IMG/VR virus record: IMGVR_UViG_3300031992_000074
Span: 1 to 64,000 of that record
Source: a virus
Taxonomy: Duplodnaviria; Caudoviricetes
DNA: 64,000 nt
Strand: one strand, 5' to 3'
The position numbers and the translations under genes were made by a program. Below are positions 506-9,260 of the stretch, in pieces. Under the pieces are notes generated by a model. The model was not told the DNA's origin. It searched no databases and saw only the letters and a list, made by a program, of their open reading frames with translations. How positions within the stretch are numbered: the first letter of the stretch is position 1; each line of letters starts with the position of its first letter.

Positions 506-3031
506 ATGGGACAACAAGTAAAAACAAAAAAGATTAGAAAAAGAAATGGCAGTGAACAAGCATTTGATATCAATAAGGTAAAAAATGCTATAAAGAAAGC
601 TAACGACTCTGTTGAAGAAGAATACAGATTAAATGAGCCTACTTTTAACAGTGTCATTAATACATTGATAGGAATATTAAATAGATATTCTGTTATTGAT
701 GTAGAAACAGTGCAAGATTTTGTAGAAAAAACACTTATGAAATATAATTGTTATCATGTTGCAAAATCATATGTATTGTATCGAGAAGAAAGAAAGAAAA
801 GCAAACTCTTAAATGATGATGAGGAAAAAATTGTATCTATTTGTAATACAACAAACGAAGATGTAAGCGGCGATAATGCAAACAAAAGACCTACACAAAA
901 TAATACTATGCGTGACTATATTGCTGGTGTAGAGTGTAAATCAATTGCACGTAAAACTTTACCAAAGGATATTATTCAAGCGCATGATGCAGGTTTAATT
1001 CATTATCACGATATGGATTATGCACCAGTACAACCAATGAGTAACTGTTGTTTAGTTAACACTTTTGATATGATAACAAATGGTTTTCAAATGGGTGATG
1101 CAAAAATTGAGCCACCTCATACTTTCTCAACAGGAGAAAATTTAATGGCACAAACTGCATTACATATTAGTAGTACTCAATATGGTGGACAAACACACTC
1201 TGTTGCCGCATTAGCTCACTTAGTTGAAAAAACAAGACAAAAGGCAAGACAAAAATATCAAGGATACACAAGTTTATCTGAAGAAGATAGACAATTATTG
1301 GTAGAGCAAGATGTATATGAAGATATTAAAAAAGGCGTTCAAACTTTCCAATATCAAGTAATTACAATGAGTTCTGCAAATGGTCAAACTCCTTTTATTT
1401 CTCTTGTTTTAAATTTAGCTGAAGCGATGACAGTAGAAGAAAGAAGAGATTTAGCCGCAATCATTGAAGAAGTATTAATTCAAAGAAAACAAGGTATTAA
1501 AAATAATCAAGGCAAATGGATTGGACCTTTATTTCCAAAACTATTGTACTTTATGTGTGATGGTTTAAATGTTGAACCAACTGACCCTTACTATTATTTA
1601 ACTGAACTTTCAGCAGAATGCGAAGTAACTCGTATGCAACCTGATATTGTTAGTGAAAAGAAAAGCCGTGAAGCAAAAGAAGGATTAATGGTACCAAGTA
1701 TGGGTTGTCGTAGTTTCTTAACTCCATATTGGAAGAAAATAACTTACACACAGCGTCGCGGCGAAAAAGGATTCATTCACGCAGAATTAAATAGTATTAA
1801 GACACTTGGTTTAAATGCAGAATTTTTAGATGAACCTGACAAAAACACTTTGTGTAAAAGTTTAAATCCACTTACTGCCGACGAGATATTAAATGCCGTA
1901 ATAAATAAATATAAACCAACTATCGCCGCAACCGATGTTGATAATTATTATCATATACAATTACCTGAACATTTAGTTATTTATAATTATTTAGGTAATA
2001 CTGGTTGGATAGATGAATTTGTTTGGAATAATAAAGAAATTAATATTGTATGCCACGAACCAAAAACATATGGACGTTGGAATCAAGGTGTTGTTACAAT
2101 TAATTTACCTTGGATTGCATTAGAATCAATAGAACAAGAAAGAAATTTCTTTGATGTATTAAGAGAACGTTCTGAATTAGTAAGAAAAGCATTACAAACA
2201 AGACATCAAAGATGCCGCGAAATTCGTGCAGAAAATGCGCCAGTGTTATGGATGTATGGAGCAATTTCTCGTTTACAACCAAAAGATGATTTAAGTAGTA
2301 TGTTAGATGATGTAGATTATACAACAATTTCTTATGGTTATGTAGGATTATATGAAACTTGTATGGCTTTAATTGGAAAATCAAATACTACTGAAGAAGG
2401 ACAAAAGTTATCTATTTTAATATTAAATTTTATAAATGATTTATTAGCTAAGTGGAAAAAAGAAGATGGTATTCCTTATTCTATTTATGGAACTCCTGAA
2501 GAACAAACTACTGAAAAATTCGCAAAAGCATTAAAGAAAAGATTTATTGAATTTGGAGAAGTAAAAGGAGTAACAGACCACGATTACGTAACAAATAGCT
2601 ACCACGTAAATCCTGCCGAAAAAATCAATGCTTTTGATAAACTACGTATTGAAGGTAAATTCTTACAATTAAGTAAGGGTGGTGCTGTTAGTTATGTTGA
2701 ATGTTCTAATGAATTAGATAGAAATTTAGCAGCTATCACAACATTATTTAAGTATATGTATGAAAATATATTATATAGTGAATTAAACTTCACAAATGAA
2801 GACTATTGTGATAATTGCGGTTACTATGGCGAATTAATATTAGACAATACTTTAAATGGTAAATTCTTATTCCATTGTCCAAAATGCGGATGTCACGATG
2901 CTACAAAGCTACATGCAAGACGTAGATTATGTGGTTATTTAGGCGAAGTTGCAAATGGTATTGGTCCAGATAGTCCTAATGCAAATCAAGGACGTTTAGC
3001 GGATATATTTGCAAGAGTAAAACATATTTAG
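506..3031 (+). CDS. nrdD: Anaerobic (class III) ribonucleotide reductase, 841 aa, with N-terminal ATP cone and ~109 aa insertion
   Basis: ATP cone (IRKRNGS..FDINKVKNAI), NCCLVN, MGCRSFL thiyl loop, GRWNQGVVTINL, Zn CxxC pairs, RRLCGYLG glycyl-radical motif. 8 Trp, all TGG. Confidence 0.95.
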   Translation: MGQQVKTKKIRKRNGSEQAFDINKVKNAIKKANDSVEEEYRLNEPTFNSVINTLIGILNRYSVIDVETVQDFVEKTLMKYNCYHVAKSYVLYREERKKSKLLNDDEEKIVSICNTTNEDVSGDNANKRPTQNNTMRDYIAGVECKSIARKTLPKDIIQAHDAGLIHYHDMDYAPVQPMSNCCLVNTFDMITNGFQMGDAKIEPPHTFSTGENLMAQTALHISSTQYGGQTHSVAALAHLVEKTRQKARQKYQGYTSLSEEDRQLLVEQDVYEDIKKGVQTFQYQVITMSSANGQTPFISLVLNLAEAMTVEERRDLAAIIEEVLIQRKQGIKNNQGKWIGPLFPKLLYFMCDGLNVEPTDPYYYLTELSAECEVTRMQPDIVSEKKSREAKEGLMVPSMGCRSFLTPYWKKITYTQRRGEKGFIHAELNSIKTLGLNAEFLDEPDKNTLCKSLNPLTADEILNAVINKYKPTIAATDVDNYYHIQLPEHLVIYNYLGNTGWIDEFVWNNKEINIVCHEPKTYGRWNQGVVTINLPWIALESIEQERNFFDVLRERSELVRKALQTRHQRCREIRAENAPVLWMYGAISRLQPKDDLSSMLDDVDYTTISYGYVGLYETCMALIGKSNTTEEGQKLSILILNFINDLLAKWKKEDGIPYSIYGTPEEQTTEKFAKALKKRFIEFGEVKGVTDHDYVTNSYHVNPAEKINAFDKLRIEGKFLQLSKGGAVSYVECSNELDRNLAAITTLFKYMYENILYSELNFTNEDYCDNCGYYGELILDNTLNGKFLFHCPKCGCHDATKLHARRRLCGYLGEVANGIGPDSPNANQGRLADIFARVKHI

Positions 3032-3047
3032 TAATGGAGGTATGGTT

Positions 3048-3548
3048 ATGAATTATATTAAAATTACTGAATGTGATACAATGAATGGTATAGGAGTAGG
3101 CATCGTGCTATGAGTTAGTGGATGCAGATGTAAATGTGAAGGTTGTTACAATCAAGAGTCTTGAGATTTTTGTGCAGGGCAACTTTTCACAAAAGAAACC
3201 GAAGAATATATAATTAACTTATTAAAAGAAAAGCCTTATTATACAAGAATAACTCTTTCTGGTGGACATCCATTTGAGCCAGAGAATGAACAAGCTTGTG
3301 AAGAATTGTGCGGCAAAATCAAACAAGAATGCCCTAACGTAAAAATTTGGGCTTATAGTGGTTTTTATTGGGATAAAATTAAAAATAGTCCAATAATGAA
3401 ATATGTCGATATTTTAGTCGATGGACCATTTATTGCCGCGCTATACAACGCAGACTTGAAATGGCGTGGAAGTTCTAATCAATCTGTTATTGATGTTCAA
3501 AAGACTATAAAACAAAATGAGATTGTAATTGCGGAGGAGTTGATATAA
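3048..3548 (+). CDS. nrdG: Class III RNR activating radical-SAM enzyme, 166 aa (needs TGA=Trp)
   Basis: GGAGG RBS at 3036-3040. Reads VLW(TGA 3111)[17 protein letters not shown](TGA 3162)DF with CxxxCxxC; then [21 protein letters not shown]. Confidence 0.93.
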
Positions 3549-3781
3549 TGAGTCAAAGAGTAGATAATTTAATAAATATGTTAGATGGATATGTCGGTGA
3601 TGGTGGTTTTCATCTTAATGTAAATGTTTTTAATAGAGATACTTTATTAGATGCACAAGCACATCCTGAAAAATATCCTCAATTAACAATAAGAGTTAGT
3701 GGTTATGCTGTAAATTTCATAAAATTAACAAAAGAACAACAAGATGAAGTAATAAGTAGAACCATTCACGAATCTATGTAG
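3548..3781 (+). CDS. grcA: Stand-alone glycyl-radical domain (GrcA/YfiD-like; equals PFL C-terminus), 77 aa
   Basis: GGFHLNVNV...[17 protein letters not shown]. Start overlaps the nrdG stop (TAATG). Confidence 0.9.
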
Positions 3782-3792
3782 GAGGTATTCTT

Positions 3793-5820
3793 ATGTGGAA
3801 TAAAGAATGGGAAGGATTTATTGCGGGAAAATGAAGTAATGATGAAATAGATGTTAGAGATTTTATTCAATTAAACTATCAACCATATGAGGGTGACGCC
3901 GCCTTTTTGGAAGGTCCGACAGATGCAACACAAACTTTATGAAAACAAATTCGTGAATTGCAACAAAAGGAACTTAAAAATGGTGGAGTTCTTCATGCTG
4001 ATACAGACATCATTTCTACTATTGATAGCCATAATCCTGGCTACATAAATAAAGGATTAGAAAAAATCGTTGGTTTACAAACTGACCAACCTTTTAAACG
4101 AGCTTTAATGCCTTTTGGTGGTATTCGTATGGCTCGTCAAGCGTGTGAAATGTATGGATATGAAGTAAGTGACAGAGTTAATGATATTTTTAAATATCGT
4201 AAAACTCATAATGACGGAGTGTTTGATGTTTACACAGATGAAATGAGAATGGCAAGAAAATCACATATCCTAACAGGTTTACCTGATACTTATGGTAGAG
4301 GTAGAATTGTTGGAGATTATAGAAGAATTGCGTTGTATGGTGTTGATTATCTTATTCAAAAAAAGAAAGAAGATATGAATTTATTGTGCGGCGAAATGAC
4401 ACCTGATAAGGTAAGAGATAGAGAAGAAGTCGCCGAACAAATTAAAGCACTTAAAGCGTTAAAAAATATGGCAGCTAAATATGGTTGTGATATATCTAGA
4501 CCCGCTAAAAATGCACAAGAAGCAATTCAATGGTTGTATTTTGGTTATCTTGGTGCTGTAAAAGACCAAAATGGCGCCGCAATGAGTATTGGTCGTAATA
4601 GCACATTTTTAGATATTTATATTGAAAGAGATTTAAAGAACAAAGCTTTAACAGAGCAAGCGGCGCAAGAATTAATTGATCACTTTATAATGAAGCTTCG
4701 TATAGTAAAATTTATGCGTATTCAATCATATAACGAACTATTCTCAGGCGACCCTGTATGAGTAACTGAATCTATTGGTGGTATGGGTATTGATGGTAGA
4801 ACATTAGTAACTAAAACATCTTTTAGAGTTTTACATACTCTTGATAATCTCGGTCCTGCCCCTGAACCAAATTTAACTGTTTTATGGGATAAAAATTTAC
4901 CTAGACATTTTAAAGAATTCTGTGCAGACTTATCTATTAGAACAAGTGCAATACAATATGAATCTGATAAATTAATGAGAGAAAAAATGGGTGATGATTA
5001 CTGTATTGCTTGTTGTGTATCTTCAATGAGAGTTGGTAAAGATATGCAATTCTTTGGTGCAAGAGCTAATTTAGCAAAATGTTTATTATATGCACTAAAT
5101 GGCGGAAAAGATGAATTAATGAAAGATGAAAATGGTAAACATATACAAATCGGACCTAAATTAAGAACTATTGATTCAGATGAACCATTAAATTATCAAG
5201 AAGTTATAGAAAAATATACTGATATGATGGAATGGTTAGCCGATTTATATGTTAATACATTAAATGTAATCCACTATATGCACGATAAATATTCTTATGA
5301 AGCATTAGAAATGGCATTACACGATACAAAAGTACATAGGTTCTTTGCAACAGGTATTGCAGGATTATCTTGTGCGGTTGATTCATTATCTGCAATTAAA
5401 TATGCAATGGTTTATCCAATTAGAGATACAGATGGAACAATAATTGATTTCTCTATTGCTGGTGATTATCCAAAATATGGCAATAATGATGATAGAGTTG
5501 ATGAAATTGCCGTTTGGTTGGTTAAAACTTTTATGAATATGATAAAGAAACATCAAACTTATAGAGATAGCGAACCAACAATGTCTATCTTAACTATAAC
5601 TTCTAATGTTGTGTATGGTAAAAAGACAGGTAATACGCCTGATGGTAGACGTGAGGGTGAACCTCTTGCTCCAGGTGCAAATCCAATGCATGGTAGAGAT
5701 TCACACGGAGCGTTAGCTTCATTAAGTTCAGTAGCAAAAATACCTTATGATTATGCACGAGATGGTATTTCTAATACTTTCTCAACAACACCTCAGTCAT
5801 TAGGTAAGGAGGAAGATTAA
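3793..5820 (+). CDS. pflB: Pyruvate formate-lyase catalytic body lacking the glycyl-radical domain, 675 aa (3 TGA=Trp)
   Basis: RBS GGAGG at 3781. WEGFIAGKW(TGA 3832)..[12 protein letters not shown](TGA 3940), [23 protein letters not shown](TGA 4759)[12 protein letters not shown] catalytic Cys pair. Ends [19 protein letters not shown]. Confidence 0.95.
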
Positions 5821-5822
5821 AA

Positions 5823-6050
5823 ATGTACAATTTGCAGTTAGGAGATAACTTATTTGTTGAAATAGATTGCGGAGATCTGTTCATTTATAGATATGATAAT
5901 GAAAATTTATCAGTAGTAAAAGAAGTAACTAAAGATTATCTCCCACCTGTGAATGAGTATGCCGTAGAAATTATTTCTTTTCATAGTAAGCGTCATTTTC
6001 TTTTTAAACGCCAAAATGGCGCTTATTGGTGGGAAGAAATTAAATATTAG
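5823..6050 (+). CDS. Hypothetical protein, 75 aa
   Basis: ORF directly downstream of pflB; GGAGG upstream within the pflB 3' end. Confidence 0.6.
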   Translation: MYNLQLGDNLFVEIDCGDLFIYRYDNENLSVVKEVTKDYLPPVNEYAVEIISFHSKRHFLFKRQNGAYWWEEIKY

Positions 6051-6060
6051 AGGTAAGAAT

Positions 6061-6492
6061 ATGAAAAAAGTAATATTATATACATTATATTGAATTTGGT
6101 CTTTCACTTGAGGAATTATTATGACATTAATAGGATTTTTCGCCGCTTGCGGTCTTGCAATCTCAGGCCATAAACCAAAACATTTAGGTCCAAATATTTA
6201 TTTCGTTGTTGGTAAAAATTGAGGTGGAGTAAATTTTGGTCCATTCTTCTTAACTAGTGAGTATGGAGAAAATTCGACTAAATATCACGAATCTGGTCAC
6301 GGATTGCAAAATTTAATATGAGGACCTTTATTCCCATTTGTTATAGCAATACCAAGCGCAATTAGATATTGGTATAGAGAATTAAAATATTATCGTAAAG
6401 GACAAAGTCCAAAAACTTCATATGATAGTATTTGGTTTGAAGGTCAAGCAACAAGATGAGGAAGAAAAGTTTATAGAAAGGAAAATAATTAA
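6061..6492 (+). CDS. Membrane protein with HExxH (HESGH) motif, 143 aa (5 TGA=Trp); absent from ORF track
   Basis: GAGG RBS. Hydrophobic N-terminus LYW*IWSFTW*GIIMTLIGFF, YHESGHGLQNLIW*GPLFPFVIAIPS, IWFEGQATRW*G (*=TGA). The stop overlaps the thyX ATG. Confidence 0.75.
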
Positions 6493-7157
6493 TGATAGAT
6501 AAAAGCAAAATTAAAGTAGAAATACTAAAACACCCTACTGAACAAGATTGGTTGTGGGCAAAAACTTGTACTTTAAATACAGTAGGTAAAAAGTTAAAAT
6601 CTTCAACTACATCAGTAGATTTAGAATATAAACAAAAATTACTTGCTTCTGAACATAGTCCAATAAGAGAATTGTGGTTTGGTATTAAATTAACTATTCC
6701 ATATTTTATTTCAGTTCATATTGTTCGTCATCATATTGGTTGTAATCACTATGTTTCGACTCAAAGAGATGATAGACACCCAGAAAGAGAAGTTTCTCGT
6801 GAAGATTTACCGCAAGGGACTTTTGTTTCTCACATATTATCAATAAATGCACAAGAATTAATGTTTTTTATGAGAAAAAGATTGTGCAATCAAGCGGACC
6901 CACTTATGCGATATGTAGCAAATTTGATTAAGAAAGCCGTACTAGAAACAAATCCTGAGTTTGAAGGTTTACTTGTGCCACTTTGTGAATACAGAAATGG
7001 AATGTGTACAGAAATGTTCCCTTGCGAAAAAGCAAAAACTTTCCGTACTGGTTTCTCTCAAATTTTAAAAATTCTTGATAATGACGAACTTTCAAAAGAT
7101 GAGCTTGAAAATATTATTGAAATTCTATATAAAGTAAAAGAAAAAGAGTCTATATAG
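6492..7157 (+). CDS. thyX: FAD-dependent thymidylate synthase (ThyX-like)
   Basis: EHSPIRE, RHH-x7-S (VRHHIGCNHYVSTQR), FMRKRLC. Confidence 0.8.
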   Translation: MIDKSKIKVEILKHPTEQDWLWAKTCTLNTVGKKLKSSTTSVDLEYKQKLLASEHSPIRELWFGIKLTIPYFISVHIVRHHIGCNHYVSTQRDDRHPEREVSREDLPQGTFVSHILSINAQELMFFMRKRLCNQADPLMRYVANLIKKAVLETNPEFEGLLVPLCEYRNGMCTEMFPCEKAKTFRTGFSQILKILDNDELSKDELENIIEILYKVKEKESI

Positions 7158-7167
7158 GCTCTTTTTT
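7142..7167 (+). terminator. Intrinsic terminator after thyX
   Basis: AAAAGAGTC-TATATA-GGCTCTTTTT. Confidence 0.55.
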
Positions 7168-7241
7168 GATTCATTTTTGAACCAAATTTTATTCTGTTTT
7201 TAGAAACTTTATAAAACACTAATATAGAAGTGAAAAAATAT

Positions 7242-7270
7242 TTGACAAAAAGGAAATTTTATCATATAAT
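7242..7270 (+). promoter_or_regulatory. sigmaA/sigma70 consensus promoter
   Basis: TTGACA 7242-7247, 17 bp, TATAAT 7265-7270. Confidence 0.8.
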
Positions 7271-7310
7271 ATATTTGTAAATAAAAGTAAAGGAGTAATA
7301 ATAGATAATT

Positions 7311-9260
7311 ATGGCTGTAAGATATGATGAGAACAGTATAACCACATTAGATTATCGTGAAGCCGCTCGTCAATCTATAGGTATGTATATTGGTGGTAAT
7401 AGTGCCGAAAATATGCAACATTTAGTAACAGAAATTGTTTCTAATGCTATGGACGAAGCCGCAGAAGGTTATGGTAAATTAATTCAAGTAATTGTTAATA
7501 CAGATAATAATTCAGTAGAAGTAATTGACCAAGGTCGTGGTATACCTTACAAGAAAAATAAATCAGGTAAATTCGCAATTGTTGAAATGTGTACTAGTTT
7601 ACACTCAGGAGGAAAATTTGAAGGACAAGGAAATTACAAATCTTCTCTTGGTTTAAATGGTGTAGGTGCAACGATAACAAATGCATTATCAACAACATTT
7701 ATAATTAATGTATGGAGAGATGGCGAACATTGTACATTCTCTGTATTAGATGGAAAACATGGCGACCCAGTCGTTGAAAAATATAGCGGCACAAAACAAG
7801 GTTCAAGTGTATATTTTATTCCAGATGCAAAAGTATTTAATAATGCAAAATGGGATATTGAAAAGATTAGAGAAGAACTTCAACTTCACGCATTACTTAA
7901 CAATGGTATCACTTTTGAGCTTATTGTTAATACTGATGGAAAGAAAGTTCAAGACATTAAATATTTATATAAGTCTGGTTTAAAGGATTTATTATTAATC
8001 AAGAGTGAAGGAAAGAAGATGTTAACTGACATTACTTACTTCAAGACAACTACTGAACATGATAGCGAAAATGTATCCGCTGACGTAGAAATTGCTTTTG
8101 CTTATACTGATGAACCAGGCGAGCGTATTTATTCATTCGTTAATGGCGGTTATACACCAAATGATGGAACTCACGTAACAGGATTTAAGACTGCATTTAC
8201 TTCATTAATGAATAAAATGGGTAAAGAATTAGGTTATTTAAAAGATGATAAGAAATTTAGCGGCGACAGTGTTAGACGTGGATTAGTTTTATGTTTAAGT
8301 ATTAAAATGACACAAAGACCAATGTTTGCTGAACAAACTAAGAAAACTTTAAATAGCCCTTGTGCTAGACAATTAGTAAGTAAGGCAGTTGGTAAATTAC
8401 AAATAGAAAATAATGTAATTAAACAAATATTAAAGAAAATTGAAAATGAGCAAAAAGCCGAGGAAGCAGCACAACGTAAACGTGAAGCACAAGAAAAAAT
8501 AGCTAAGGGTGGTCATTCAATGAATAGTTTAAGAGACTTACCTGAAAAGTTAGCGGACGCAAGTGACTTCACAAATGCAGAAATCTTTTTCTGTGAGGGA
8601 GATTCAGCCGCTGGTGGTGCAAAGACAGTTAAGGCTAAAAATCAAGCAATTATGCCTTTAAGAGGTAAGATTTTAAACACAACTTGTAAAGAACTTGCGG
8701 ACATAATTAAGTCAGATATCATTAAAGACATCTTAACTTGTTTAGGTTGCGGAATTGGAGATAATTTTAATATAAAAAATTTACGTTATGATAAGTTAAT
8801 TATTATGACAGATGCGGACTCAGATGGTAAGCATATTGAACTATTGTTAATGACATTATTTTTACATCACTTACCTGAATTAGTAAAGCAAGGTAAAGTT
8901 TATGTAACAACACCACCATTATTTAAGACTACAACAGGTCGCGGCGAAATTAAGTATTGGTATGAAGAAAATAGTGAATTTAAAAAATATGTAAGAAATC
9001 ACTCTGGATTAGATATAATTCGTTATAAAGGTCTTGGAGAACAAGATGCAAAAGAATTATATGCAACTACAATGGATCCAGCAAATCGTAAACTAGTTCA
9101 ATTAACTACTAATGATATTGAAAAAACATTAGAATTATATTCAAAATTAATGGGTAAGAGTGCCGCAGAGCGCCGCAACTATATCATTTCTCATAATATG
9201 TTGGCTTATGATGCCGCAGATGATGATTTTGAAGATTTCGATGATTTTGATGAAGAATAA
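7311..9260 (+). CDS. gyrB: Type IIA topoisomerase B subunit (GyrB/ParE-like)
   Basis: GHKL motifs (EIVSNAMDE, DQGRGIP, GLNGVG), TOPRIM EGDSA, PLRGKILN, IMTDADSDG, YKGLGE; acidic tail. Confidence 0.93.
   Translation: MAVRYDENSITTLDYREAARQSIGMYIGGNSAENMQHLVTEIVSNAMDEAAEGYGKLIQVIVNTDNNSVEVIDQGRGIPYKKNKSGKFAIVEMCTSLHSGGKFEGQGNYKSSLGLNGVGATITNALSTTFIINVWRDGEHCTFSVLDGKHGDPVVEKYSGTKQGSSVYFIPDAKVFNNAKWDIEKIREELQLHALLNNGITFELIVNTDGKKVQDIKYLYKSGLKDLLLIKSEGKKMLTDITYFKTTTEHDSENVSADVEIAFAYTDEPGERIYSFVNGGYTPNDGTHVTGFKTAFTSLMNKMGKELGYLKDDKKFSGDSVRRGLVLCLSIKMTQRPMFAEQTKKTLNSPCARQLVSKAVGKLQIENNVIKQILKKIENEQKAEEAAQRKREAQEKIAKGGHSMNSLRDLPEKLADASDFTNAEIFFCEGDSAAGGAKTVKAKNQAIMPLRGKILNTTCKELADIIKSDIIKDILTCLGCGIGDNFNIKNLRYDKLIIMTDADSDGKHIELLLMTLFLHHLPELVKQGKVYVTTPPLFKTTTGRGEIKYWYEENSEFKKYVRNHSGLDIIRYKGLGEQDAKELYATTMDPANRKLVQLTTNDIEKTLELYSKLMGKSAAERRNYIISHNMLAYDAADDDFEDFDDFDEE

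What the first reader, a model, noticed from the sequence alone, without database searches (positions are those of the whole stretch)
506..5820. nrdD-nrdG-grcA-pflB operon: phage may make its own formate to drive anaerobic dNTP synthesis
Seen: class III RNR, its activase, a glycyl-radical domain and a PFL catalytic body (intact CC pair) are packed head-to-tail with overlapping or near-overlapping starts, and thyX follows. Known: NrdD enzymes with the M-G-C-R loop (T4/E. coli type) use formate as reductant, and PFL makes formate from pyruvate. Inference: this is a self-contained reductant-supply module for phage dNTP production. Phage GrcA alone is known (T4), but a whole PFL coupled to NrdD is unusual to my knowledge.
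Basis: partly seen in the sequence, partly recalled or inferred. Interest (0 to 1): 0.85.

Follow-up and report, generated by a model that had tools for sequence, protein, structure and literature searches.

The report
Phage NrdD operon with two-piece PFL
An uncultivated phage that reads TGA as tryptophan carries, in one operon with its oxygen-sensitive ribonucleotide reductase, a complete pyruvate formate-lyase made of two separately encoded pieces in swapped order; this most likely lets it make the formate that the reductase consumes when it makes DNA building blocks.

Summary
On a 79-kb IMG/VR phage contig the genes run nrdD (506-3031), nrdG (3042-3548), a 77-aa glycyl-radical piece (3548-3781), a 675-aa PFL body (3793-5820), orf75, orf158 and thyX, ending at a terminator-like hairpin.

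The "grcA" is not a spare part. Body and piece cover positions 1-664 and 665-744 of the PFL model, so together they form one enzyme.

This two-gene PFL is common in gut Bacillota, always as body then piece; this scan has already reported that bacterial form several times. The phage order, piece then body, is reversed. It recurs in three related metagenome contigs, with dN/dS of 0.09-0.15.

The block is not a host block: no bacterial locus had nrdD within 8 kb of PFL.

An unrelated phage (L115) carries nrdD, a fused pflB and nrdG, so the linkage arose twice. All linked NrdDs have the MGCRS loop of the formate-using E. coli/T4 type.

No PFL activase was found in any of the five PFL-bearing phage records searched, so the module is not self-contained.

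Formate supply for dNTP synthesis is the best reading, but it is inferred, not shown. It is a new variant of known kinds.

The parts
506..3031 (+). nrdD, class III (anaerobic) ribonucleotide reductase, 841 aa. It has an ATP-cone, a SMGCRS finger loop, a Zn ribbon and the RRLCGYLG glycyl-radical motif. It has no TGA codon. It carries an extra stretch of about 110 aa after the finger loop.
   Evidence: NF006732 scores 701 bits against a cut-off of 657, and it aligns to T4 NrdD 1H78 and to 9D3X.
3042..3548 (+). nrdG, the NrdD activase (radical SAM, 168 aa). It has two in-frame TGA=Trp codons (W24, W41). The W41 TGA is conserved in three related phage contigs.
   Evidence: (TIGR02491, 164 bits against 126).
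3548..3781 (+). 77-aa glycyl-radical subunit of PFL (GrcA3-like, motif RVSGYA). It equals positions 665-744 of the PFL model. Its ATG overlaps the nrdG stop.
   Evidence: NF038360, 157.1 bits against 158; dN/dS 0.11-0.15.
3793..5820 (+). PFL catalytic body, 675 aa. It equals positions 1-664 of the PFL model, has an intact Cys-Cys pair (C407/C408, IACCVS) and ends at ...LGKEED. It has three TGA=Trp codons. Its RBS, AGGAGG, overlaps the stop codon of the piece.
   Evidence: (TIGR01255, 1069 bits against 994).
5823..6050 (+). orf75, a small protein of unknown family. In four other phage contigs that lack the body it lies 37-325 nt downstream of the piece.
   Evidence: (L088, L089, L092, L099).
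6016..6492 (+). orf158, a predicted membrane protein with an HESGH (HExxH-like) motif and 5 TGA=Trp codons. It is conserved in relatives.
   Evidence: No family match was found.
6492..7157 (+). Divergent thyX-like gene (221 aa), the last gene of the unit.
   Evidence: Pfam Thy1, 39.7 bits against 24.8, partial match; TIGR02170, 28 bits, below its cut-off of 87.9.
7140..7167 (+). Terminator-like hairpin (12-bp stem followed by a T run) at the end of thyX. A perfect TTGACA-17-TATAAT promoter-like site at 7242-7270 follows, ahead of gyrB.
   Evidence: consensus scan only.

Best explanation
This is a phage operon, nrdD-nrdG-piece-body-orf75-orf158-thyX, that pairs a formate-dependent class III ribonucleotide reductase with a complete, functional two-subunit pyruvate formate-lyase.

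The 675-aa body carries the Cys-Cys active site. The 77-aa subunit carries the glycine that becomes the radical, and docks into the body where the C-terminal domain of one-chain PFL sits.

The PFL came from gut Bacillota, in which PFL is already encoded as two genes. In this phage clade the body lies downstream of a piece gene that sits directly after nrdG, so the order is reversed.

During anaerobic infection the enzyme cleaves pyruvate with CoA into acetyl-CoA and formate. The formate is the reductant the phage NrdD uses to turn NTPs into dNTPs, and thyX then serves dTMP synthesis.

The radical on the piece is most likely installed by the host's PflA, because the phage has none. Installation by the phage NrdG is not excluded.

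Shown: gene content, integrity, selection, origin and linkage. Inferred: activity, which activase acts, and that the formate feeds NrdD.
For: 1. Body and piece cover TIGR01255 positions 1-664 and 665-744 with no overlap or gap. The CC pair and the RVSGY motif are intact.

2. The same permuted layout occurs in three diverged metagenome contigs (L133, L135, L136) with identical junctions. Pairwise dN/dS is 0.09-0.15 for the body and 0.11-0.15 for the piece, at dS 0.6-0.9 (for the piece, 0.15 between the window and L133).

3. TGG-to-TGA changes accumulate at invariant Trp sites: 0, 1 and 3 in L136, L133 and the window. This indicates long residence in a recoded phage.

4. Complex prediction for the L136 pair gave ipSAE 0.93 against a best control of 0.00. 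That mark was reached by 58 of 80 solved complexes and by 2 of 110 mismatched pairs. Runs agreed in at least 94% of contacts and the partner's pLDDT was at least 84. The interface includes body residues 407-409 and piece residues 44-56. The pass may come from the model's memory of one-chain PFL structures.

5. The body sits in a clade with SH-aLRT support of 99, made up of 15 two-gene and one fused PFL of gut Bacillota plus one other viral contig. In five such bacterial genomes the split PFL is the only PFL that passes TIGR01255.

6. The NrdD is of the E. coli/T4 type, which uses formate (PMC4493059; Mulliez 1995 as cited in PMC13689563). The MGCRS loop is also present in the NrdDs linked to the piece or to PFL in L087, L088, L094 and L115.

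7. Linkage is phage-specific and recurrent. No nrdD lies near PFL in bacteria. L115, a phage contig with terminal repeats, has nrdD overlapping a fused pflB followed by nrdG, and its PFL belongs to a different clade. The piece alone lies within 8 kb of nrdD or nrdG in 7 of 20 viral contigs.

8. There is no strong terminator inside the unit, and one after thyX.
Against: - No enzymology or expression data exist.
- No PflA is on the contig, which CheckV rates 71% complete, so activation depends on an unidentified partner.
- The likely hosts already have PFL, so the benefit of a phage copy is assumed, not shown.
- Gene clustering could reflect shared anaerobic regulation or shared radical chemistry, not metabolite supply.
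- Several large viral contigs carry PFL far from nrdD. In T5-like phages grcA is not next to nrdD.
- PFL also yields acetyl-CoA and ATP, which could be the selected product.
Confidence: 0.55

Rival explanations
1. PFL is a general fermentation booster. The phage PFL raises acetyl-CoA, and hence acetate and ATP output, in the infected cell. It sits beside nrdD and nrdG only because both are glycyl-radical enzymes expressed under the same anaerobic programme. Formate is a by-product.
For: PFL is central to energy metabolism in the donor bacteria, where it is the only PFL in five genomes. Several viral contigs carry full-length PFL tens of kb from nrdD. A published survey lists phage PFL as a carbon-flow gene (PMC13644194).
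Against: Tight operon linkage with nrdD and nrdG arose twice independently (window clade and L115). The unit otherwise holds nucleotide-metabolism genes: thyX here, and guanylate kinase and dUTPase in L115. The linked NrdDs are all of the formate type.
Confidence: 0.25
2. The main player is the 77-aa piece, acting on the host enzyme. It serves as a fresh radical subunit for the host's own two-piece PFL body, as T4 Y06I does for damaged E. coli PFL. The phage body is a later, dispensable addition in one clade.
For: Of 20 viral contigs with the piece, 19 have no body, including all 9 that are at least 90% complete. The piece has no TGA codon, so a standard-code host could translate it early. orf75 follows the piece directly in phages without a body, which suggests the body was inserted between them. 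GrcA-like genes occur in 1,585 cultured-phage records.
Against: In this clade the body is conserved in at least three diverged lineages with dN/dS of 0.09-0.15 and conserved coupled junctions, so it is not dispensable there. This reading also does not conflict with formate supply; it only changes which body is used.
Confidence: 0.15
3. The region is an artefact or is decaying: host DNA mis-assembled into a viral contig, or a PFL broken by stops and rearrangement and no longer functional.
For: Under the standard code the body and nrdG look fragmented. The gene order is scrambled relative to every bacterial locus.
Against: The TGA codons sit at invariant Trp columns and the whole phage uses TGA=Trp. 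The neighbours are phage genes: portal, DnaB, primase and polymerase. The same layout occurs on four independent contigs under purifying selection. No bacterial relative has an in-frame TGA.
Confidence: 0.03

Closest known systems
Naturally two-gene PFL of gut Bacillota and other gut anaerobes (body plus 'GrcA3', NCBIfam NF038360)
   Same: The split point is the same (...LGK-D/E | M-S-x-R-V-x-N-L) and the piece is the same size, 76-78 aa. Identity is 73-79% for the body and 77-94% for the piece. The window's body nests inside this clade. PDB 38LA is a 687-residue 'formate acetyltransferase' chain that ends at the same point.
   Different: All split bacterial loci examined (about 65) have body then piece, usually with pflA adjacent and never with nrdD nearby. 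The phage has piece then body, no pflA, a position inside an nrdDG-thyX operon, and TGA=Trp codons. I found no paper on the bacterial form ('GrcA3' gave 0 papers; the June 2026 review PMC13450708 names only YfiD). This scan has reported it several times.
E. coli PflB with the spare-part protein GrcA/YfiD, and phage T4 Y06I
   Same: A small protein homologous to the PFL C-terminal glycyl-radical domain supplies the radical glycine to a PFL body that lacks one. GrcA-like genes are common in phages, with 1,585 records.
   Different: GrcA is 127 aa with a disordered N-terminal half and rescues an oxygen-cleaved full-length enzyme. Here the piece is 77 aa, begins exactly where the body ends, and its partner never had a radical domain. 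It scores 90 bits against a cut-off of 170 on the GrcA model TIGR04365. In T5-like phages grcA is not near nrdD.
Formate-dependent class III RNR NrdD/NrdG of E. coli and phage T4 (NrdD1 subtype)
   Same: Same catalytic motifs, an equivalog-level match, and an adjacent small NrdG activase. Formate is the reductant in this subtype (PMC4493059).
   Different: There is an insertion of about 110 aa after the finger loop, absent from T4, 9D3X and other phage NrdDs. nrdG carries TGA=Trp codons. A formate-producing enzyme is encoded in the same operon.
Phage L115 (IMG/VR contig of 108.9 kb with direct terminal repeats): nrdD, fused pflB, nrdG
   Same: PFL is embedded in the phage nrdD/nrdG unit among nucleotide-metabolism genes. 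The NrdD has an MGCRS loop and there is no PflA.
   Different: The PFL is a single 756-aa chain from a different PFL clade and lies between nrdD and nrdG. The genome uses the standard code.

Membership tests
Pyruvate formate-lyase (formate C-acetyltransferase, TIGR01255) | Full-length match to the family model above its cut-off | tested here: met
   The body alone scores 1068.6 bits against a cut-off of 994.2 over positions 1-664. The piece covers positions 665-744.
Pyruvate formate-lyase (formate C-acetyltransferase, TIGR01255) | Adjacent catalytic cysteines (E. coli C418/C419) and conserved active-site residues | tested here: met
   C407/C408 in IACCVS are invariant in 12-14 aligned PFLs. 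The body aligns end to end with E. coli 1H16.
Pyruvate formate-lyase (formate C-acetyltransferase, TIGR01255) | Radical glycine (E. coli G734) in an RVSGY motif on the same polypeptide | tested here: not met
   The motif is on a separate 77-aa protein encoded upstream. This is a two-chain variant of the family.
Pyruvate formate-lyase (formate C-acetyltransferase, TIGR01255) | A cognate PflA-type activase | tested here: not met
   No TIGR02493 match above its cut-off on the 79-kb contig; only nrdG appears, at 25 bits. The contig is rated 71% complete, and the host may supply PflA.
Pyruvate formate-lyase (formate C-acetyltransferase, TIGR01255) | Pyruvate plus CoA converted to acetyl-CoA plus formate | not testable with these tools
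   Needs anaerobic enzymology.
GrcA/YfiD spare-part protein (TIGR04365) | Match above the family cut-off, including the N-terminal region | tested here: not met
   90.4 bits against a cut-off of 170. Only profile positions 67-126 match.
GrcA3 (NCBIfam NF038360) | Match above the family cut-off over the whole 78-position profile | tested here: inconclusive
   157.1 bits against a cut-off of 158, over positions 3-78 of 78. Identity to bacterial members is 86-94%.
Class III RNR, formate-using NrdD1 type (E. coli/T4) | Finger-loop Cys preceded by Met (M-G-C-R), a bottom Cys (NCCL), and a C-terminal Zn ribbon with glycyl-radical motif | tested here: met
   SMGCRS, SNCCLV, two CxxC pairs and RRLCGYLG are present. 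NF006732 scores 701 bits against 657. It aligns to T4 1H78.
Class III RNR, formate-using NrdD1 type (E. coli/T4) | Absence of the third Cys and the Glu that define the thioredoxin-using NrdD2 | not tested
   I made no alignment to an NrdD2 reference. The subtype is inferred from the equivalog match and from motif identity with T4 and E. coli (PMC4493059).
NrdG activase (TIGR02491) | Match above cut-off with a CxxxCxxC radical-SAM cluster motif | tested here: met
   164.4 bits against 126.1. The motif reads [10 protein letters not shown].
ThyX (TIGR02170 / Pfam Thy1) | Match above cut-off | tested here: inconclusive
   Pfam gives 39.7 bits against 24.8, but only profile positions 133-190. NCBIfam gives 28.4 bits against 87.9.

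The most novel reading that the evidence does not exclude
The phage's small NrdG-type activase installs the glycyl radical on both NrdD and the 77-aa PFL subunit. One activase would then serve two glycyl-radical enzymes, which would make the formate-plus-reductase module truly self-contained. All five PFL-bearing phage records searched, two of them at least 96% complete, carry an NrdG-type activase or none, and no PflA. In L115 the activase gene follows both enzyme genes.
Probability: 0.2. Interest if true: 0.8.

Novelty: new variant of a known kind. Interest (0 to 1): 0.6.

Why it matters
Class III ribonucleotide reductases of the E. coli/T4 type need formate. Where a phage gets enough of it during a burst of DNA synthesis has not been asked.

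An operon that pairs this reductase with a formate-producing enzyme has arisen twice in unrelated phages. That points to reductant supply as a limiting step that phages solve by gene capture. It gives a directly testable system: replace formate with pyruvate plus CoA in a reconstituted assay.

The locus is also a natural example of a glycyl-radical enzyme that works from two chains encoded in reversed order. That is useful for studying how the radical domain is presented to its activase and docked into the barrel.

It further shows a metabolic gene being recoded step by step (0, 1, then 3 TGA codons) after transfer from a standard-code bacterium into a TGA=Trp phage.

Tried and rejected
- Intron hypothesis: the 100-400-nt gaps between body and piece in many bacteria are not introns. 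Rfam found no intron or other family there. The body ORF ends in a stop, and the piece has its own ATG.
- Suppressor tRNA: ARAGORN found no tRNA in the window or in the remaining 15 kb of the contig. Rfam found nothing in the window. Whether the host uses code 4 or the phage carries a suppressor on the missing part stays open.
- The AlphaFold2 model of the body from a 14-row alignment was poor (mean pLDDT 62, rmsd about 23 Å to E. coli PFL). I used it only to look up PDB titles. That library ends on 8 April 2026 and lacks 38LA and 38LB, so their titles remain unknown.
- orf75 and orf158 gave no hit in Pfam, NCBIfam or PHROGs.
- Literature searches for a naturally split PFL, or for a phage PFL-NrdD link, found nothing beyond lists of phage metabolic genes.
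- Most 'phage' PFL hits in the cultured-phage collection are unannotated fragments or enterobacterial-type full-length genes at 57-66% identity. I did not examine them, so they are not evidence either way.

Full report
**What is there**

The window is positions 1-64000 of a 79,069-bp IMG/VR viral contig that CheckV rates 71% complete. It is a tailed phage. It has a portal, a virion protein, a DnaB-like helicase, a primase, a RecJ-like exonuclease, a large DNA polymerase, topoisomerase II subunits and a Sak4-like protein.

The phage reads TGA as tryptophan. Under table 4, long ORFs appear that are broken under table 11. In 45 genes I counted 95 in-frame TGA and 129 TGG, and no gene ends in TGA.

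Under table 11, nrdG looks like an 80-aa fragment and the PFL body like two ORFs. Under table 4, nrdG is 168 aa (3042-3548) and the body is 675 aa (3793-5820). The three TGA codons of the body fall on Trp columns that are invariant across 12 PFLs, including the E. coli type.

thyX is separated from the PFL by two small genes. The reading depends on the alternative code.

**The PFL is one enzyme in two chains**

Against the curated PFL model TIGR01255, the body matches positions 1-664 (1069 bits, cut-off 994). The 77-aa protein matches positions 665-744.

The body ends at ...SLGKEED, and the piece begins MSQRVDNL.... In E. coli PFL the same residues run on without a break. The Cys-Cys pair is on the body and the RVSGY radical glycine is on the piece.

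The piece fails the classical GrcA model (90 bits against 170). It lands 0.9 bits under the cut-off of NCBI's 'GrcA3' model. It is therefore not a spare part next to a whole enzyme. It is the only radical-bearing subunit this PFL has.

A complex prediction for the TGA-free orthologues from L136 placed the glycine loop of the piece (residues 44-56) against the Cys-Cys residues (407-409). The ipSAE was 0.93, against 0.00 for the best of three controls. That mark was reached by 58 of 80 solved complexes and by 2 of 110 mismatched pairs. Runs agreed in at least 94% of contacts, and the partner's pLDDT was at least 84. One-chain PFL structures are solved, so this pass may reflect likeness to them and not independent evidence of binding.

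**Where it came from**

The 77-aa form is very common. In 80 bacterial loci retrieved with it, about 65 show a body ORF that ends in a stop, a spacer of 20-400 nt, and a piece with its own ATG. The order is always body then piece. Only three loci are fused. None of these bacterial genes has an in-frame TGA. Rfam finds no intron in the spacers.

In five of these genomes the split PFL is the only gene that passes the PFL model, and nrdD lies elsewhere.

In a maximum-likelihood tree, the window's body falls in a clade with SH-aLRT support of 99. The clade holds 15 two-gene and one fused PFL from gut Bacillota (Scatosoma, Borkfalkiaceae, Gallimonas, CAG:449, an Acholeplasmatales MAG) and one other viral contig, L086/L126. 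That viral contig keeps the bacterial order.

PDB 38LA is a 687-residue 'formate acetyltransferase' chain. It ends exactly at the split point and is the best structural match. Its title and citation were not available to me.

This scan has already reported the bacterial two-gene PFL several times on other genomes. I confirm it here independently, but it is not the new element.

**What is special in the phage**

The order is reversed: piece, then body.

Three metagenome contigs from related phages (L133, L135, L136) show the same string: nrdD, nrdG, piece, body, orf75, orf158, thyX, gyrB. The junctions are identical. The nrdG TAA overlaps the ATG of the piece. The TAG of the piece lies inside TAGGAGGT, 7 nt before the ATG of the body.

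Between these lineages the body is 83-88% identical, with dN/dS of 0.09-0.15 at dS 0.6-0.9. The piece has dN/dS of 0.11-0.15. Both genes are therefore maintained by selection inside phages.

The number of TGA codons in the body rises from 0 (L136) to 1 (L133) to 3 (window), always at conserved Trp sites. This is what one expects for a gene taken from a standard-code bacterium and slowly recoded.

In other phages the piece is followed closely (37-325 nt downstream) by orf75, with no body (L088, L089, L092, L099). A relative, L137, has nrdD-nrdG-orf158 with no PFL module at all. The simplest history is that a piece gene already sat after nrdG and the body was added downstream of it. This is inference.

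**Link to the reductase**

The NrdD passes the E. coli-type equivalog model (701 bits against 657). It aligns with T4 NrdD and 9D3X, and it has the NCCL cysteine, the SMGCRS finger loop and the RRLCGYLG radical site.

E. coli, L. lactis and T4 enzymes of this subtype use formate as reductant (PMC4493059). Formate generation is regarded as essential for anaerobic dNTP synthesis in E. coli (PMC13689563).

Three lines of evidence tie PFL to this enzyme in phages:

- The nrdD-PFL juxtaposition is absent from all bacterial loci examined, so it is not a copied host block.
- An unrelated phage contig with terminal repeats (L115, 108.9 kb) has nrdD overlapping a one-chain pflB followed by nrdG. These sit between guanylate kinase and dUTPase, and the PFL belongs to a different clade. 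The linkage therefore arose at least twice.
- Among 20 viral contigs carrying the piece, 13 encode nrdD (8 of the 9 that are at least 90% complete). In 7 of the 20 the piece is within 8 kb of nrdD or nrdG. Only one has a body. The linked NrdDs that could be aligned all have MGCRS.

A terminator-like hairpin follows thyX and a consensus promoter precedes gyrB, with nothing strong in between. This fits one transcription unit from nrdD to thyX.

**What is missing**

There is no PflA-type activase on this contig. There is none on four other PFL-bearing viral records either, two of which are at least 96% complete. Four of the five, this contig among them, have an NrdG-type activase; L086's record shows no activase at all.

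By precedent, T4 Y06I is activated by the host enzyme (Wagner et al. 2001, as cited in PMC13450708). The host PflA is therefore the likely activase. A dual role for NrdG is the more novel possibility and cannot be excluded.

**Verdict**

With high confidence (about 0.85), the genes form a functional two-piece PFL acquired from bacteria. With moderate confidence (0.55 for the whole mechanism), it is kept next to nrdD and nrdG because it supplies formate for phage dNTP synthesis.

The rival readings are a general energy gene, or a piece that mainly serves the host's PFL body. They are compatible with much of the data and are partly not exclusive.

Already known are phage GrcA-like genes (1,585 cultured-phage records), phage PFL in lists of metabolic genes (PMC13644194), two-gene PFL in bacteria (annotation level, plus this scan), and TGA-recoded phages. 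The new parts are the reversed two-gene PFL fixed in a phage clade, its recurrent operon linkage with a formate-type NrdD, and the consistent absence of PflA.

Noticed in passing
window 1736-2068 (NrdD residues about 411-521): An insertion of about 110 aa lies directly after the catalytic finger loop of NrdD. It has no counterpart in T4 NrdD, PDB 9D3X, or the NrdDs of L087, L088 and L115. It is conserved in the close relatives L094, L133 and L135. It has no family match and does not look like an intein.
   Followed up: partly
window 5823-6050; L088 8378-8584, L089 8556-8777, L092 8554-8772, L099 8269-8484: orf75, of unknown family, lies just downstream of the 77-aa radical piece in four other phage contigs that lack a PFL body. 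It may be functionally tied to the piece.
   Followed up: partly
window 6016-6492: orf158 is a predicted membrane protein with an HESGH (HExxH-like) motif. Five of its eight Trp codons are TGA, at positions conserved in L133. It overlaps the end of orf75.
   Followed up: no
window 3162-3164 (NrdG W41); L133, L135, L136: The TGA at NrdG Trp41 (CYNQESW-DF) is conserved in all four PFL-carrying relatives, while nrdD and the piece have no TGA. The relative without PFL (L137) has no TGA in nrdG. In a standard-code host the activase would be made only after TGA read-through begins.
   Followed up: partly
L115 5774-10756 (IMGVR_UViG_3300045594_000145): A standard-code phage with terminal repeats carries nrdD (739 aa) overlapping a one-chain pflB (756 aa), followed by a 144-aa NrdG-type activase. 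These sit between guanylate kinase and dUTPase, next to a split DNA polymerase III alpha.
   Followed up: partly
L109 and L117 (viral records of 220 kb and 233 kb, at least 96% complete): Jumbo-sized viral records carry full-length PFL together with nrdD and nrdG, but far apart and without PflA. I did not check whether these are true phages or misclassified elements.
   Followed up: partly
L086/L126 (IMGVR_UViG_3300028591_000126) 5941-8234: A second viral contig has a two-gene PFL in the bacterial order (81% and 91% identity). It lies after a DUF3310 gene and before an ECF-riboflavin-transporter-S-like gene and a PriA-like helicase. In the tree its body is sister to a bacterial MAG, which suggests a separate acquisition.
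   Followed up: partly
genome of L014 (CP091735.1) about 857,576-857,818: This complete bacterial genome has, besides its two-gene PFL operon, an extra stand-alone copy of the radical piece (open frame of 80 aa) 0.8 Mb away. It may be a true spare part for a two-piece enzyme.
   Followed up: no
PDB 38LA and 38LB: Two recently deposited 'formate acetyltransferase' chains (687 and 739 residues) are the best structural matches. 38LA ends exactly at the natural split point, so someone appears to be working on the two-gene form. Title and citation were not available.
   Followed up: partly
window 7140-7270: A 12-bp terminator-like hairpin at the thyX stop is followed by a perfect TTGACA-17-TATAAT site ahead of gyrB. 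This would mark an operon boundary if the host uses sigma-70-type promoters.
   Followed up: no
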